Assembly (NCBI GenBank): GCA_964252035.1
Contig: OZ176200.1
Length of the DNA: 64,000 bases
Reading direction: 5' to 3' (one strand)
Source: Podarcis erhardii
Lineage: Eukaryota
The position numbers were made by a program. Position 1 is the stretch's first letter. Each line of letters starts with the position of its first letter. This document shows positions 44,501 through 56,500 of this stretch, piece by piece.

Positions 44501-47500
44501 AGCAGTGTAGAGTAAAACACAGTTACATAAATTCAATAAACATTGAAAATATCAGCCCCAAACTTGCAAAAAACAAACAAACAAAGTCAGATAAAGCAGG
44601 ATTAACAAAATGATTTAAATGTAAATATAAAAAGTAAGTAAAAAGGTTTCTACTCCTCCTCAAACTATACAGCAGAGCACCAAAGTAGACTCCCCTGTGG
44701 AGAGTGGTGCACAATCATGATGTAGGTATAAGGAAGGATGTATGTTGAGCATATGTACAATCAATCCAATATGTGAATGAAAACATTGCTTCAGCTGCTT
44801 TTCAAATTCATTAAGAGAAACTCACCAGGAGAAAACAAGCCCTTACTAAATCCGGGCACACGGCAGAAACATGGAGTTGTTCTGCTCAAAGTGACTGTTG
44901 TAGTTCCTGTTGTAGAAGGTATGGAAGTACTTGTTGCTGCTGAAGACACAATAGAAAAGAAATAAATGTATAGCAGTTGTTACGTACTGCTTGAAGACAT
45001 ACTGCTGGAAATGGATGCTGAACACTGTAGATACTTAAGACTTCAGTGTACACTTCCAAAGCACCAACTGAAGCATAACAATTCAGAATTCCAACTGAAC
45101 TCAGCCGGACTTACATGTATCTTTAGGGTTGGAGAATTTAACTTGATAATTGTACTACAAAAACCAGTTAATTGTTTAATGGATCAGATCAATACTTTGC
45201 TTACTTGCTGTTCTTATTATACACCTACCATGCTATCAAGAAACAGGGGAATCCAGCTATATTCCTCCCAGTATCAAGAAACACACCCCTCCAGTCCAAA
45301 GGTGCTGTTAAGAAAATTCCAAATATCTAGCCAGAGAGCTATCTACTACTTGAAATAGCACTGAAAACTTATTTGAAAAATGCACACTGAGATCTAGGCA
45401 AACATTTTTGATAAGTTGCTAGCTGATAGACACTAGGTTTCATAAATGGGATACCAATTTTTGAAAAGGGTGGTATATGAAATAAGATCACCAAACCCCA
45501 ATTAATATGAAACAATTTGCTAACATTTGGCATGACACCTGTAATTGAGTAACATGTAATAAATTTAACTGTTGGAATATTTACCAAAGGTAACAAGATT
45601 TTCATACCAGGATATGCAGATTCATTCTGTAATTACCTGTTGTAACAACAACCAAAGGCTTAGTGGAAAATGGCACTCTGGTAGGGACAGTTGCTGTTTC
45701 TACAGTAATCCCAGTAGTGGATATCGTCGACACAGGTTTGGAAACATGGGTAGATGGAAGAGATGTGGTTGAAACGGTGGAAGCCACTCCAGAAGTGATG
45801 AAAGGTGTGCTGACGGAGCCAGGGGTTGAGAGAGGGGTGGTGGTCATGGGCTTTCCTGTTGTAATTCCAGGAGTGGTGGAAACAAGGGTGGTGCTTTGGG
45901 TGGTAGTGACTACAATGGGTGGTGGTGTAGAAGCTGTGGAGGATGCTGGAGTTGTGCTCTTGCCAGCAGTGCTGCCTGGTGTTTCTGTGGTCGTTGGCTT
46001 TCCTGTGGTTACTCCTGGAGTTGTGGAAACAAGAGTGGAGCTTTGGGTGGTGGTAAATACAATGGGAGGTGGCGTAGACCCCGTGGAGGATGCTGGAGTT
46101 GTGCTTTTGCCTGCCGTGCTGCCAGGTTTTTCTGTGGTAGAAGCAGCAGATGTGCTCAGTGGTGTTGTGCTAGGATGGCAGGGCTTGTATTCACAGCACT
46201 GGTATCTAACCTGGAAGTTATAACACATCTTGTCTGTTTGCTTTGAATTTTCACACAAAAGTCCAACATGGAGGTTACATTGCACTTCCTGACCAAGCAG
46301 ATGCAGGCTGACATCAGGGTGATTCTCAGCTCTGCATTCAATGTCTTGTGGATGTTTGCAAATATTTCCTCCAGCTTTTCGGATGGTCTCAAAATTCTCA
46401 ATATCGCCATCATCTGGACTGCTGGTAGGACGGTGCAAATCATACCAGGAGGTCCAGTTACACTTTGGGAGGCACACAGTAGAGGTACTTTCTAGCGTAG
46501 TGGTAACAAGGGGAGCCAGGGTGGTTGTTGTGGTCAGCAGGCCTGGAGGGGTTTGTGCAGTGGTCCCGGTGGTGGGTATTGTTGAGGAAGGCTTGGAAAC
46601 AGGAGTGGACTGGAGTGTTGTGGCTGTCACAGTGGGGACCACTCCAGTGGAGACGGCAGCGGTGCTGACTGAGGCTGGTGTTGTGAGAGGGAGGGTGGAA
46701 AGCGGCGTTGAGTGGGTGGTGGTGGTTGGCTTTCTTGTTGTAACTCCTGGAGTTGTCGGAAGAAGGGTGGTGCTTTCGGTGGTGGTGAATACAACGGGAG
46801 GTGGCGTAGAGCCCGTGGAGGATGCTGGAGCCGTGCTCTTGCCTGCCGTGCTGCCTGGTGTTTCTGAGGTTGTTGGCTTTCCTGTGGTTACTCCTGGTGT
46901 TGTGGAAACAAGGGTGGTGCTTTCGGTGGTGGTATGGACAACAGGAGGTGGCGTAGAGCCCGTGGAGGATGCTGGAGCCGTGCTCTTGCCCACCGTGCTA
47001 CCTGGGGCTTCTGCGGTGGTGGCACTTGTTGTGACCAGTGGCGCTGGCGTGGTTTCACAGTGCTTGTAGTCGCAACACAGTGCTCTCATCTCATAATCGT
47101 AACACATCTTGTACTTCCCCATCTGTTTGGCATTCTCACAAAGGAGTCCAGTGTTGATATCGCAGATCATGTTCTGTCCAAGTTCAGATGCGCTCAGCTC
47201 TGGGTAGTCCACTCCTCTGCACTCCACCTTTTGAGGGTGCTCGCAGATGGTACCCCCCGATGCCTGGATGCTCTTAATGTCCTCTCGATCGCCATCCCCA
47301 GGGTCGGAGCTTGGAGTGTGAAAACTGAACCAAGAGGTCCACTGGCATTTGGGTTGGCAACCGGTAGTGGTGCTTCCTGGCGTAGTGGTAACAAGGGGAG
47401 CCAGGGTGGTTGTTGTGGTCAGCAGGCCTGGAGGGGTTTGTGCAGTGGTCCCGGTGGTGGGTATTGTTGAGGAAGGCTTGGAAACAGGAGTGGACTGGAG

Positions 47501-53500: not shown

Positions 53501-56500
53501 TGTGGTGGTGGCACTTGTTGTGACCAGTGGCGCTGGCGTGGTTTCACAGTGCTTGTAGTCGCAACACAGTGCTCTCATCTCATAATCGTAACACATCTTG
53601 TACTTCCCCATCTGTTTGGCATTCTCACAAAGGAGTCCAGTGTTGATATCGCAGATCATGTTCTGTCCAAGTTCAGATGCGCTCAGCTCTGGGTAGTCCA
53701 CTCCTCTGCACTCCACCTTTTGAGGGTGCTCGCAGATGGTACCCCCCGATGCCTGGATGCTCTTAATGTCCTCTCGATCGCCATCCCCAGGGTCGGAGCT
53801 TGGAGTGTGAAAACTGAACCAAGAGGTCCACTGGCATTTGGGTTGGCAACCGGTAGTGGTGCTTCCTGGCGTAGTGGTAACAAGGGGAGCCAGGGTGGTT
53901 GTTGTGGTCAGCAGGCCTGGAGGGGTTTGTGCAGTGGTCCCGGTGGTGGGTATTGTTGAGGAAGGCTTGGAAACAGGAGTGGACTGGAGTGTTGTGGCTG
54001 TCACAGTGGGGACCACTCCAGTGGAGACGGCAGCGGTGCTGACTGAGGCTGGTGTTGTGAGAGGGAGGGTGGAAAGCGGCGTTGAGTGGGTGGTGGTGGT
54101 TGGCTTTCTTGTTGTAACTCCTGGAGTTGTCGGAAGAAGGGTGGTGCTTTCGGTGGTGGTGAATACAACGGGAGGTGGCGTAGAGCCCGTGGAGGATGCT
54201 GGAGCCGTGCTCTTGCCTGCCGTGCTGCCTGGTGTTTCTGGGGTTGTTGGCTTTCCTGTGGTTACTCCTGGTGTTGTGGAAACAAGGGTGGTGCTTTCGG
54301 TGGTGGTATGGACAACAGGAGGTGGCATAGAGCCCGTGGAGGATGCTGGAGCCGTGCTCTTGCCCACCGTGCTACCTGGGGCTTCTGTGGTGGTGGCACT
54401 TGTTGTGACCAGTGGCGCTGGCGTGGTTTCACAGTGCTTGTAGTCGCAACACAGTGCTCTCATCTCATAATCGTAACACATCTTGTACTTCCCCATCTGT
54501 TTGGCATTCTCACAAAGGAGTCCAGTGTTGATATCGCAGATCATGTTCTGTCCAAGTTCAGATGCGCTCAGCTCTGGGTAGTCCACTCCTCTGCACTCCA
54601 CCTTTTGAGGGTGCTCGCAGATGGTACCCCCCGATGCCTGGATGCTCTTAATGTCCTCTCGATCGCCATCCCCAGGGTCGGAGCTTGGAGTGTGAAAACT
54701 GAACCAAGAGGTCCACTGGCATTTGGGTTGGCAACCGGTAGTGGTGCTTCCTGGCGTAGTGGTAACAAGGGGAGCCAGGGTGGTTGTTGTGGTCAGCAGG
54801 CCTGGAGGGGTTTGTGCAGTGGTCCCGGTGGTGGGTATTGTTGAGGAAGGCTTGGAAGCAGGAGTGGACTGGAGTGTTGTGGCTGTCACAGTGGGGACCA
54901 CTCCAGTGGAGACGGCAGCGGTGCTGACTGAGGCTGGTGTTGTGAGAGGGAGGGTGGAAAGCGGCGTTGAGTGGGTGGTGGTGGTTGGCTTTCTTGTTGT
55001 AACTCCTGGAGTTGTCGGAAGAAGGGTGGTGCTTTCGGTGGTGGTGAATACAACGGGAGGTGGCGTAGAGCCCGTGGAGGATGCTGGAGCCGTGCTCTTG
55101 CCTGCCGTGCTGCCTGGTGTTTCTGGGGTTGTTGGCTTTCCTGTGGTTACTCCTGGTGTTGTGGAAACAAGGGTGGTGCTTTCGGTGGTGGTATGGACAA
55201 CAGGAGGTGGCGTAGAGCCCGTGGAGGATGCTGGAGCCGTGCTCTTGCCCACCGTGCTACCTGGGGCTTCTGCGGTGGTGGCACTTGTTGTGACCAGTGG
55301 CGCTGGCGTGGTTTCACAGTGCTTGTAGTCGCAACACAGTGCTCTCATCTCATAATCGTAACACATCTTGTACTTCCCCATCTGTTTGGCATTCTCACAA
55401 AGGAGTCCAGTGTTGATATCGCAGATCATGTTCTGTCCAAGTTCAGATGCGCTCAGCTCTGGGTAGTCCACTCCTCTGCACTCCACCTTTTGAGGGTGCT
55501 CGCAGATGGTACCCCCCGATGCCTGGATGCTCTTAATGTCCTCTCGATCGCCATCCCCAGGGTCGGAGCTTGGAGTGTGAAAACTGAACCAAGGGGTCCA
55601 CTGGCATTTGGGTTGGCAACCGGTAGTGGTGCTTCCTGCCGTAGTGGTAACAAGGGGTGTCAGAGTGGTTGTTATGCCACCTGTCACTTTAGATGTTGTT
55701 CTGGATCCTGCTGTTGTTATTTCTGGTGTTGCTGGAGTTGTTGATGCACCACATGGCGTGTATAGGCAGCATAGGAACCTGATTTCAAAATTCAGGCAGA
55801 TTGGTGGTGTCTGATCCTTATTGTTGCATATCAAACCGTTAGACTTGGAACATTGTACCTTTTGTCCGAGGGTTTCTATGCTCTCATTAGGAAAGCGCTG
55901 AGCTCTGCATTCCACTTCATCTGGCATTTTACATACTTTGTTTCCTCTATCTCTTATTTTCTCTGGTGTTTCATAATCCCCATTGTCTCGTCCAAATTTA
56001 GGGTAGCTGACATCATACCATTCTGTCCATTCACATGTTCTATGGACACATACTGTTGTTTGTGCTGTAGTGGATTCTGAAAGAAACAACATCACTGGTT
56101 ATTTTAATCCGGTTCATTTAGATCATAAATCTCCCTATCTGTTATCTGCCTCCTCTCTCCTTTCCCATGTAACCTCTCTCCCAAGTTTTTTCTGTAGATG
56201 AGGCAGGGATTGGGGGGCGGGCGGGGGACCAGAAGAGCACATTGTTGGAAGTGGATCATTCCATCTGGGGAGCTGCCATGCTTGAGCCGATTGAACCTTC
56301 AACTTAACTTTATGTTGATTTCCATCTTGTATATGTTTATTTTAAAATAATATATGCAACATGTAACAAAAATATGAATATGATGTATTTGGGGATGTTT
56401 TCCTATGTTATAGAAGATTTGTAAAGTTTTTCATTATCTCTTCATTTTCTTACATACTTTGTTTATAAATGCTTGCTTTTGATCATGTCGCATTTACATC

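What the first reader, a model, noticed from the sequence alone, without database searches (positions are those of the whole stretch)
45637..56076. Central exon built from ten almost identical CysD+PTS modules (12 CysD in total)
Seen: a unique first CysD, ten CysD copies identical in protein except one Pro/Ser, each followed by about 195 or 245 aa of PTS, and a divergent last CysD. Units differ at only a handful of nucleotides. Known: human MUC5B has 7 CysD and MUC5AC 9, with more diverged copies and longer PTS tracts. Inference: very recent expansion or strong concerted evolution producing a mucin with evenly spaced, identical cross-linking/adhesive CysD nodes about every 295 aa, predicting a fine, regular gel mesh and copy-number polymorphism among individuals.
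Basis: partly seen in the sequence, partly recalled or inferred. Interest (0 to 1): 0.65.

Follow-up and report, generated by a model that had tools for sequence, protein, structure and literature searches.

The report
Lizard mucin exon with homogenised repeats
This is the large central exon of a lacertid lizard's mucus-forming MUC5-type mucin, whose ten near-identical repeat units are real but are the normal, concertedly evolving state of this gene in lizards, turtles and some other vertebrates.

Summary
Window 45637-56076 is one minus-strand exon of 10,440 bp. It encodes 12 CysD (Pfam Mucin2_WxxW) domains separated by Pro/Thr/Ser-rich (PTS) tracts. CysD1 is unique and CysD12 is divergent. 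CysD2-11 are identical apart from one Ser/Pro. They sit in ten tandem units, eight of 885 bp and two of 1032 bp, that differ at 0-5 nucleotides among u2-u10.

The gene is the TOLLIP-adjacent MUC5 mucin of a lacertid lizard. Its flank exons are 97% identical to Podarcis muralis "mucin-5B-like". It is not human.

Podarcis muralis has 8 internal units of 295 aa and Zootoca has 5 of 294 aa. Geckos, Elgaria, Hemicordylus, Pogona, a snake, turtles, donkey MUC5AC and a mullet also carry regular, near-identical CysD+PTS arrays. These make up 15 of 118 named homologues.

Internal CysDs group by species, whereas first CysDs (and, in the lacertids, last CysDs) group by position. All window units differ from all P. 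muralis units at 6 fixed residues. This is concerted evolution of an old array, not a new expansion.

Copy number (ten) cannot be verified without reads. Mesh and polymorphism predictions remain untested. Interest is low to moderate.

The parts
45637..56076 (-). Large central exon of a MUC5-type gel-forming mucin (10,440 bp; 12 CysD plus PTS tracts)
   Evidence: Open frame; splice sites; junctions agree with the P. muralis and Zootoca gene models
55751..56050 (-). CysD1, unique; orthologous to the first CysD of other squamates
   Evidence: Pfam PF13330 E 1.8e-27. The first CysDs of 8 species form one clade, SH-aLRT 100
46475..55618 (-). Tandem array of ten CysD+PTS units (u2-u11): 8 of 885 bp and 2 of 1032 bp, 9144 bp in all
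   Evidence: 0-5 nt differences among u2-u10; u3 equals u5; 8 variable columns
54431..54733 (-). CysD3, representative of the identical internal CysD (101 aa, 10 Cys, WTSW motif)
   Evidence: Pfam E 4e-25. PDB sequence hits 8ov0 (E 1.2e-25) and 8oer. Model pLDDT 88, TM 0.88 to MUC5AC CysD7
52817..53848 (-). Long unit u4 (1032 bp) with a third 147-bp PTS sub-repeat
   Evidence: differs from u10 at 1 of 1032 nt
47360..48391 (-). Long unit u10 (1032 bp) carrying the same 147-bp insert as u4
46178..46474 (-). CysD12, divergent last CysD; orthologous to the last CysD of P. muralis and Zootoca
   Evidence: Pfam E 6.7e-27. The lacertid last CysDs form one clade, SH-aLRT 99
45637..46177 (-). Terminal PTS tract (180 aa) with two diverged 49-aa sub-repeats
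   Evidence: TRF row 45840-46138, period 147, 85% matches
56871..62973 (-). Upstream exons of the same gene (D3 region: VWD, C8 and further exons). The N-terminal D1-D2 lies beyond the window
   Evidence: tblastn of P0002 residues 864-1308: six exon matches at 94-100% identity and one gapped match at 72% that spans an intron. Pfam VWD and C8 on single exons
25099..45021 (-). Downstream exons of the same gene (fourth VWD, C8, Cys-rich exons, cystine knot, stop near 25099)
   Evidence: tblastn of P0002 residues 4093-4988: 16 exon matches at 92-100% identity, plus two weaker matches (62% and 53%) that each contain a stop. Pfam VWD E 6e-13, C8 E 1e-13, Cys_knot E 7e-4 and 2e-3, the last two below Pfam's cut-off
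2967..16462 (+). Exons of TOLLIP (C2 exon within 2967-3308, CUE exon within 16184-16462), converging tail-to-tail on the mucin gene
   Evidence: Pfam C2 E 1.4e-7 and CUE E 7.6e-15. The CUE exon matches named toll-interacting proteins at 87-99% identity

Best explanation
The region is the central exon of the TOLLIP-adjacent MUC5-type gel-forming mucin of a lacertid lizard closest to Podarcis muralis.

The protein alternates two kinds of segment. One is a globular CysD domain with 10 cysteines. The other is an unstructured PTS tract of 194 or 243 aa, 62% Ser+Thr+Pro, presumed to be densely O-glycosylated.

The ten middle units are nearly identical because the 885-bp tandem array is continually homogenised by unequal crossing-over and/or gene conversion between units (concerted evolution). 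The array itself is old: it is shared with other lacertids and, with other unit lengths, with squamates generally. Its present copies nevertheless coalesce recently within each species. The units at the two edges (CysD1, CysD12) escape homogenisation and stay orthologous between species.

Shown here: the anatomy, the domain identity and fold, the gene identity, the species-wise grouping of internal copies, the fixed differences, the mosaic variants, and the differing copy numbers among assemblies.

Inferred: the molecular exchange mechanism, the O-glycosylation, and the role of CysD as non-covalent interaction nodes that set mucus network properties. The last rests on MUC2 CysD work (PMC3195396, abstract read).
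For: Gene identity.
- Best homologues are P. muralis mucin-5B-like (P0002, 94% identity) and Zootoca (P0003, 87%).
- Flank exons are 97.1% identical to P0002 (1127 of 1161 aa in 21 matches) and 95.0% to P0003.
- VWD, C8 and cystine-knot exons flank the central exon.
- TOLLIP exons lie tail-to-tail downstream, the position that PMC4948705 gives for the Muc5 gene.

CysD identity.
- Pfam match.
- All 10 PDB sequence hits are mucin CysD-containing chains.
- The model has pLDDT 88.1. All 8 Foldseek hits at E <= 0.001 are mucin CysD entries, the best being 8ov0 at TM 0.88.

Concerted evolution.
- In a tree of 94 CysDs from 8 squamates, the first CysDs form one clade (SH-aLRT 100) and the lacertid last CysDs form one clade (99).
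- The 23 lacertid internal CysDs form one clade (100). Within it the window's 10, P. muralis's 8 and Zootoca's 5 each group apart (80, 82, identical).
- Species labels need 16 changes on the tree, against a shuffled mean of 60.1; 0 of 200 shuffles were as low.
- All 10 window units differ from all 8 P. muralis units at 6 fixed residues (4 in CysD, 2 in PTS) and from all 5 Zootoca units at 19. Within-array polymorphic columns number 11, 10 and 16.
- Consensus-unit divergence from P. muralis is about 8 of 295 aa, my own count from the consensus lines printed. That is like the 2.9% seen in flank exons.
- All four allele combinations occur at 3 of the 10 pairs formed by 5 informative sites. u4 and u10, five units apart, share the 147-bp insert and differ at 1 of 1032 nt.
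- Internal unit numbers are 10, 8 and 5 in the three lacertids.
Against: - Support for the species-specific internal clades is modest (SH-aLRT 80 and 82), because few sites differ.
- Comparisons with relatives are at protein level only, from one predicted gene model per species. No DNA of relatives was available, so synonymous divergence between orthologous and paralogous units and formal gene-conversion tests could not be run.
- Copy numbers in all species rest on unverified assemblies.
- 6 of the 8 variable sites in the array are non-synonymous, so some within-array variation may be selected or may be sequencing or assembly error.
- CysD cross-linking has not been shown for any MUC5 CysD in what I read. 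MUC5AC CysD1 was not seen docked in filaments (PMC11912381).
- By sequence, the sauropsid Muc5 genes do not group with mammalian MUC5B, so 'MUC5B' is a positional name only.
Confidence: 0.85

Rival explanations
1. Assembly artefact in copy number. The array is real, but the number of units (ten), their order, or the identity of u3 and u5 results from collapse or expansion during assembly of near-identical 885-bp repeats.
For: Units are at least 99.4% identical and u3 equals u5, the regime in which assemblers err. Relatives show 8 and 5 internal units, and a second P. muralis model (P0013) shows only 3 CysD, so models of this exon do vary.
Against: There is no N in the window. The reading frame is intact over 10.4 kb. 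Unit-specific variants form a consistent mosaic. The same architecture appears in independent assemblies of other species. No reads were available, so this rival is not excluded.
Confidence: 0.15
2. A recent expansion private to this lineage, from a single ancestral CysD+PTS unit, with no homogenisation of a pre-existing array.
For: Very low divergence among units (0-5 nt). The window has more internal units (10) than P. muralis (8) or Zootoca (5).
Against: P. muralis and Zootoca have arrays of the same 295/294-aa unit with the same flanking first and last CysD. All 8 squamates examined have arrays. Independent parallel expansions in each species would be needed. That is in practice the turnover process which concerted evolution by unequal crossing-over describes.
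Confidence: 0.07
3. The units are old and independent, and are kept identical only by strong purifying selection on each copy.
For: CysD domains are conserved and cysteine-constrained (invariant columns).
Against: Selection on separate copies cannot place the same 6 (P. muralis) or 19 (Zootoca) species-specific substitutions in every copy. It also would not keep the PTS spacers nearly identical or leave only 2 synonymous differences across the array.
Confidence: 0.02

Closest known systems
Podarcis muralis 'mucin-5B-like' (P0002, 4988 aa) and Zootoca vivipara 'mucin-5B-like' (P0003, 4146 aa), predicted NCBI models
   Same: Same gene. Flank exons are 97.1% and 95.0% identical. Both have a unique first CysD, then homogeneous 295/294-aa CysD+PTS units, then a divergent last CysD.
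   Different: They have 8 and 5 internal units against 10 here. There are 6 and 19 fixed residue differences per unit. The long units differ: one of 388 aa in P. muralis, a last unit of 344 aa in Zootoca, and two of 344 aa here. The P0002 model has a shorter terminal PTS.
Human MUC5B central exon (10.7 kb; 7 CysD; four super-repeats of 528 aa)
   Same: A single large exon of about the same size. CysD alternates with PTS in super-repeats, and several CysD are nearly identical (PMC6780288 passages; PMC9712336 passages). The gene is the TOLLIP neighbour (PMC4948705 passages).
   Different: Here the units are shorter (295 aa), more numerous (10) and far more uniform. The PTS holds 2-3 copies of a 49-aa sub-repeat rather than runs of 29-aa repeats (PMC9712336). 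By N-terminal sequence, sauropsid Muc5 genes group apart from mammalian MUC5B.
Human MUC5AC (typically 9 CysD; CysD and PTS copy-number alleles)
   Same: Six CysD are described as nearly identical (PMC9712336). CysD copy number varies between haplotypes (PMC11344006). The solved CysD7 structure 8ov0 is the closest match to the window's CysD by sequence (E 1.2e-25) and by fold (TM 0.88).
   Different: Human PTS tracts are of very unequal length, with runs of 18 to 119 copies of an 8-aa repeat. Here the spacers are fixed at 194 or 243 aa.
Regular CysD+PTS arrays in other vertebrate MUC5/MUC2-type models
   Same: Equal-length units with high median pairwise identity. Examples: Gekko 250 aa x13, Elgaria 236 x12, Euleptes 247 x13, Eublepharis 248 x10, Ahaetulla 168 x10, Carettochelys 221 x10, Chelonia 230 x8, donkey MUC5AC 256 x12 (99.6%), Mugil 164 x9, Morphnus 'mucin-2' 196 x8.
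   Different: Each lineage has its own unit length and sequence. Lacertids have the longest unit in this set (295 aa).

Membership tests
CysD domain (Pfam PF13330 Mucin2_WxxW) | Match to the family HMM above the curated cut-off (22.4 bits) | tested here: met
   96.3, 88.7 and 94.5 bits for CysD1, an internal CysD and CysD12
CysD domain (Pfam PF13330 Mucin2_WxxW) | Ten conserved cysteines (five intradomain disulfides in MUC2 CysD; PMC3195396 abstract) and a WxxW motif | tested here: met
   All 12 domains have 10 Cys. The motif is WTSW, WTPW or WTEW. The Cys columns are invariant across 17 CysDs. Disulfide pairing itself was not tested.
CysD domain (Pfam PF13330 Mucin2_WxxW) | The fold of solved CysD structures | tested here: met
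   Model pLDDT 88.1. TM 0.88 to 8ov0 and 0.85 to 8oer_I, with rmsd 1.7 and 1.5 A.
Gel-forming mucin of MUC2/MUC5 type | (VWD-C8-TIL)x3 before the PTS region | tested here: inconclusive
   Only the third VWD and C8 lie in the window. D1-D2 are beyond position 64000. P0002 residues 864-1308 map at 94-100% identity in six exon matches, plus one gapped match at 72%.
Gel-forming mucin of MUC2/MUC5 type | A large PTS exon interrupted by CysD domains | tested here: met
   2270 aa of PTS (62% S+T+P, no Cys) and 12 CysD in one exon
Gel-forming mucin of MUC2/MUC5 type | A fourth VWD-C8 unit and a C-terminal cystine knot after the PTS | tested here: met
   VWD E 6.1e-13 and C8 E 1.2e-13. Cys_knot E 6.9e-4 and 2e-3 on single exons, below Pfam's cut-off taken alone. 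These exons are 95-97% identical to the P0002 C-terminus.
MUC5B orthologue | Last mucin of the cluster, next to TOLLIP | tested here: met
   TOLLIP C2 and CUE exons lie on the opposite strand downstream. No mucin exon was detected in 1-25 kb.
MUC5B orthologue | Groups with mammalian MUC5B rather than MUC5AC in a sequence tree | tested here: not met
   N-terminal tree of 31 named proteins, with P0002 as proxy. Two sauropsid Muc5 clades (99 and 100) sit with a frog Muc5 (97), apart from the mammalian 5AC (100) and 5B (99) clades. This agrees with PMC4948705.
Concertedly evolving tandem array | Paralogous units more alike within a species than orthologous units between species, with fixed species-specific differences | tested here: met
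   (6 and 19 fixed differences), at protein level only
Concertedly evolving tandem array | Evidence of exchange between units and of copy-number change | tested here: met
   All four allele combinations at 3 of 10 site pairs. u4 and u10 share an insert and differ at 1 of 1032 nt. There are 10, 8 and 5 internal units in three lacertid assemblies. Formal gene-conversion tests and read support were not possible.

The most novel reading that the evidence does not exclude
Homogenisation may be more than a by-product of tandem repetition and may itself be functionally exploited. Each squamate lineage keeps one CysD sequence and one fixed spacer length within a molecule: 168, 205, 236, 247-250, 266, 273 or 295 aa in different families. 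Identical CysD nodes at a constant pitch could then pair in register between neighbouring chains and set a lineage-specific mesh size of the mucus. On this reading, unit length and unit number would be the evolvable 'dials' of mucus rheology in reptiles.
Probability: 0.12. Interest if true: 0.55.

Novelty: new member of a known kind. Interest (0 to 1): 0.25.

Why it matters
The finding has little standalone importance. The gene family, the CysD/PTS alternation, super-repeats, near-identical CysDs and CysD copy-number variation are all described for human MUC5AC and MUC5B.

What the comparison adds is that, in the sauropsid Muc5 models examined, whole CysD+PTS units evolve in concert while the first CysD (and, in the lacertids, the last) stays orthologous. 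Each lineage ends up with its own unit length and number. My two text searches found no paper stating this. One search (CysD + mucin + 'concerted evolution') returned 0 papers, and none of the 10 papers listed of 30 found treats gel-forming mucin CysD arrays.

Such a natural series of CysD spacings could be used to test whether CysD spacing sets mucus network properties. The case is also a practical warning that copy numbers of these exons in assemblies and gene models need long-read confirmation.

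Tried and rejected
- Human origin was considered and rejected. The best hits are lacertid lizards, and the flank exons are 97% identical to P. muralis.
- A six-unit higher-order duplication was considered, because the two long units lie six units apart. It is not supported: u4 and u10 are near-identical, but u5 and u11 differ at 3 sites outside the junction, and u3 and u9 differ at 3 sites.
- Searches failed because three tblastn-derived references contained a stop codon. 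The list was corrected and run.
- The listing of cluster members for P0002 and P0003, meant to find further lacertid sequences, did not complete because the database was switched off. It is therefore unknown what else sits in those 90% clusters.
- Complex prediction for a CysD homodimer was not available. Nothing can be said here about CysD-CysD binding.
- Genome contigs holds only bacteria and archaea and was not used.
Exons were handled one by one.
- No supplementary files of papers were consulted. Supplementary trees of PMC4948705 may bear on the Muc5 orthology statement.
- TRF does not report the 885-bp unit because its longest period is 500. The unit was established by alignment instead.

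Full report
**What is there.** The window has one very long open frame on the minus strand, 45602-56098 (3498 aa). It lies in a block of GC 0.54-0.57, set in sequence of GC 0.36-0.43. There is no N in the window. The exon is bounded by a polypyrimidine/AG acceptor at 56076 and an ACAG|gtaatt donor at 45637. Both junctions match the predicted proteins of relatives: '...PSEA|ESTTAQTTVCVHRTCEW' in Podarcis muralis and '...KPLVVVTT|AATSTSIPS...' in Zootoca.

**Domains and units.** Twelve CysD domains are present (motif scan; my own HMM).
- The three distinct types match Pfam PF13330 Mucin2_WxxW at E 1.8e-27, 4e-25 and 6.7e-27. A PTS spacer matches no family.
- Each CysD has 10 cysteines.
- CysD1 is unique and CysD12 is divergent. 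CysD2-11 are identical, except that CysD2 has WTPW where the others have WTSW.
- From CysD2 onward the period is 295 aa eight times and 344 aa twice, giving PTS spacers of 194 or 243 aa.
- In total the PTS amounts to 2270 aa: 34.5% Thr, 14.5% Pro, 13.0% Ser, 1077 Ser+Thr and no Cys.
- Each spacer contains two copies of a 147-bp (49-aa) sub-repeat, about 86% alike. The two long units (u4, u10) contain three copies.

**Nucleotide level.** The ten units are 885 bp (eight) or 1032 bp (two).
- Among u2-u10 only 8 columns vary, and pairwise differences are 0-5. u3 and u5 are identical.
- u11 has 8 private changes, 7 of them in the last 20 nt before CysD12.
- Of the 8 variable sites, 2 are synonymous and 6 non-synonymous. 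Only one amino-acid change lies in a CysD.
- Three of the ten pairs formed by the five informative sites show all four allele combinations.
- u4 and u10, five units apart, share the same 147-bp insert and differ at 1 of 1032 nt.
- The array is therefore a mosaic of a few variants, as expected if units exchange sequence.

**Which gene, which organism.**
- Minus-strand exons upstream (56.9-63.0 kb) encode VWD and C8. Exons downstream (45.0-25.1 kb) encode a further VWD, C8, Cys-rich modules and a cystine knot. The cystine-knot exons fall below Pfam's cut-off when taken singly.
- A protein search with the first 460 residues of the exon returned 128 hits. The best are P. muralis 'mucin-5B-like' (P0002, 94%) and Zootoca vivipara 'mucin-5B-like' (P0003, 87%). 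Other squamates score 39-47%.
- Flank exons are 97.1% identical to P0002 (1127 of 1161 aa) and 95.0% to P0003 (mapping).
- The window is therefore from a lacertid lizard close to, but not the same as, the P. muralis reference. It is not human.
- Only residues equivalent to about 864 to the end of the protein lie in the window. I built no joined model and searched exon by exon.
- Downstream on the plus strand are a C2 exon and a CUE exon. The CUE exon matches named toll-interacting proteins at 87-99% identity. The mucin is thus the TOLLIP-adjacent Muc5 gene, the MUC5B position (PMC4948705 passages).
- In a tree of the N-terminal 1250 residues of 31 named proteins, with P0002 as proxy, sauropsid Muc5 genes form two clades (SH-aLRT 99 and 100). 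These sit with a frog Muc5 (97), apart from mammalian MUC5AC and MUC5B. PMC4948705 also reports this. 'MUC5B' is therefore a positional label, not a demonstrated one-to-one orthology.

**Is it unusual?** No.
- Lacertids: P. muralis has 10 CysD, with 8 internal units (seven of 295 aa and one of 388 aa). Zootoca has 7 CysD, with 5 identical internal CysD in units of 294 aa (the last unit is 344 aa).
- Other squamates:
  - Gekko: 13 units of 250 aa
  - Elgaria: 12 of 236 aa
  - Euleptes: 13 of 247 aa
  - Eublepharis: 10 of 248 aa
  - Hemicordylus: units of 273 aa
  - Anolis sagrei: 8 of 266 aa
- The other sauropsid paralogue does the same: Pogona about 205 aa, Ahaetulla 168 aa, turtles 221-230 aa.
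- Beyond sauropsids, donkey MUC5AC has 12 units of 256 aa (median identity 99.6%) and a mullet mucin has units of 164 aa.
- I examined 118 of the 120 hits, dropping two unnamed records. Of those 118, 60 have at least 5 CysD, 31 at least 10 and 20 at least 12. Fifteen have at least 5 equal-length units with median identity of 95% or more.
- This count is a lower bound, since many models come from assemblies that may have collapsed the array.
- Rodent, marsupial and whale MUC5B models are irregular.

- Human MUC5AC and MUC5B do typically have 9 and 7 CysD (PMC11912381 passages).
- However, six MUC5AC CysD and MUC5B CysD2-6 are described as nearly identical (PMC9712336 passages).
- Human MUC5B has four 528-aa super-repeats (PMC6780288 passages).
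- CysD copy number varies among human MUC5AC haplotypes (PMC11344006 passages; PMC13345508 passages).

**How the homogeneity arises.** I built a tree of 94 CysDs from 8 squamates.
- All first CysDs fall in one clade (SH-aLRT 100).
- The three lacertid last CysDs fall in one clade (99).
- The 23 lacertid internal CysDs fall in one clade (100). Within it the window's 10, P. muralis's 8 and Zootoca's 5 each group separately. Support is only 80 and 82, because few sites differ.
- In the other five species the non-first CysDs also group by species.
- Species labels need 16 changes on the tree, against a shuffled mean of 60.1 (0 of 200 shuffles as low).

Direct inspection is clearer. Every internal CysD of the window reads ...GQNMICDINTG...KQMGKYKMC..., and every one of P. 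muralis reads ...GQDMICDIDTG...KQRGKYKIC.... Over whole units there are 6 fixed differences between all 10 window units and all 8 P. muralis units, and 19 against all 5 Zootoca units. The consensus unit differs from that of P. muralis at about 8 of 295 residues (my count from the consensus lines). That is about the same as the 2.9% seen in single-copy flank exons. The array therefore evolves at the ordinary rate, but as one entity.

This is the signature of concerted evolution by unequal crossing-over and/or gene conversion. Edge units escape, and copy number drifts (10, 8 and 5 internal units). Purifying selection on independent copies cannot explain shared species-specific substitutions. A private recent expansion is contradicted by the shared unit and architecture in relatives.

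**What it does (inferred).** The internal CysD has the fold of solved mucin CysDs.
- By sequence, the PDB hits are 8ov0 (MUC5AC) at E 1.2e-25, then 8oer (MUC5B) and 6tm6 (MUC2).
- An AlphaFold2 model built on a 17-sequence alignment has pLDDT 88.1.
- The model superposes on 8ov0 at TM 0.88 and on 8oer_I at TM 0.85. All 8 hits at E <= 0.001 are mucin CysD entries.
- MUC2 CysD forms non-covalent dimers and was proposed to act as a cross-link that sets pore size (PMC3195396, abstract).
- For MUC5AC, CysD1 was not seen docked on filaments and its partners are open (PMC11912381).

The lizard protein is thus best read as a bottle-brush polymer with 12 compact, disulfide-locked nodes. Ten of the nodes are identical and 295-344 residues apart. 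Whether that gives a finer or more regular mesh is not testable here.

**Caveats.**
- All comparisons with relatives use one predicted protein per species. No DNA of relatives could be reached, because the only open contig collection holds bacteria and archaea.
- The cluster look-up that might have shown more lacertids was switched off.
- The copy number of ten rests on the assembly alone.

**Verdict.** The feature is real and accurately described. It is correctly attributed to concerted evolution but is ordinary for the clade. It is a new member of a known kind.

Noticed in passing
window 2967-3308 (+) and 16184-16462 (+): C2-domain and CUE-domain exons of TOLLIP converge tail-to-tail on the mucin gene. 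This shows that the mucin occupies the MUC5B position of the conserved cluster.
   Followed up: yes
window 90-656 (+): A 189-aa open frame matches reverse transcriptase (Pfam RVT_1, E 6.4e-28). It is probably a retroelement fragment lying before the TOLLIP C2 exon.
   Followed up: no
window 4770-4975: Two copies of a 98-bp tandem repeat, 92% alike, in non-coding sequence.
   Followed up: no
window about 11.2, 20.6, 32.7, 35.5 and 41.5 kb: Dinucleotide microsatellites lie in introns or intergenic DNA. They show up as CVCVCV, THTHTH or IYIYIY runs in the frame translations.
   Followed up: no
window 40287-40520 (-): A short extra PTS-like stretch (TTSPPTTTPHEPRTTTPAPTP...) sits inside a C-terminal exon between the fourth VWD and C8. 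It is 96% identical to P0002.
   Followed up: no
window 45637-46177 (-) compared with P0002 residues about 4020-4150: The P. muralis model has a terminal PTS tract about 70 aa shorter than the window and Zootoca, and lacks the '...VETATVPTRVPFSTKPLVVVTT' end. This is either a real deletion or a different donor chosen by the gene model.
   Followed up: partly
P0009 (Anolis sagrei) and P0007 (Hemicordylus capensis): Anolis internal CysDs fall into two types only 75% identical, interleaved along the array. Hemicordylus spacings repeat as 273-286-273-394. Both suggest higher-order (multi-unit) repeats, unlike the single-unit array of lacertids.
   Followed up: partly
P0038 and P0044 (Morphnus guianensis 'mucin-2' isoforms), P0015 (Mycteria americana): These bird models carry 7-8 CysD-to-CysD units of 196 or 181 aa at 95-100% median identity. 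Homogeneous arrays are therefore not confined to genes named MUC5.
   Followed up: no
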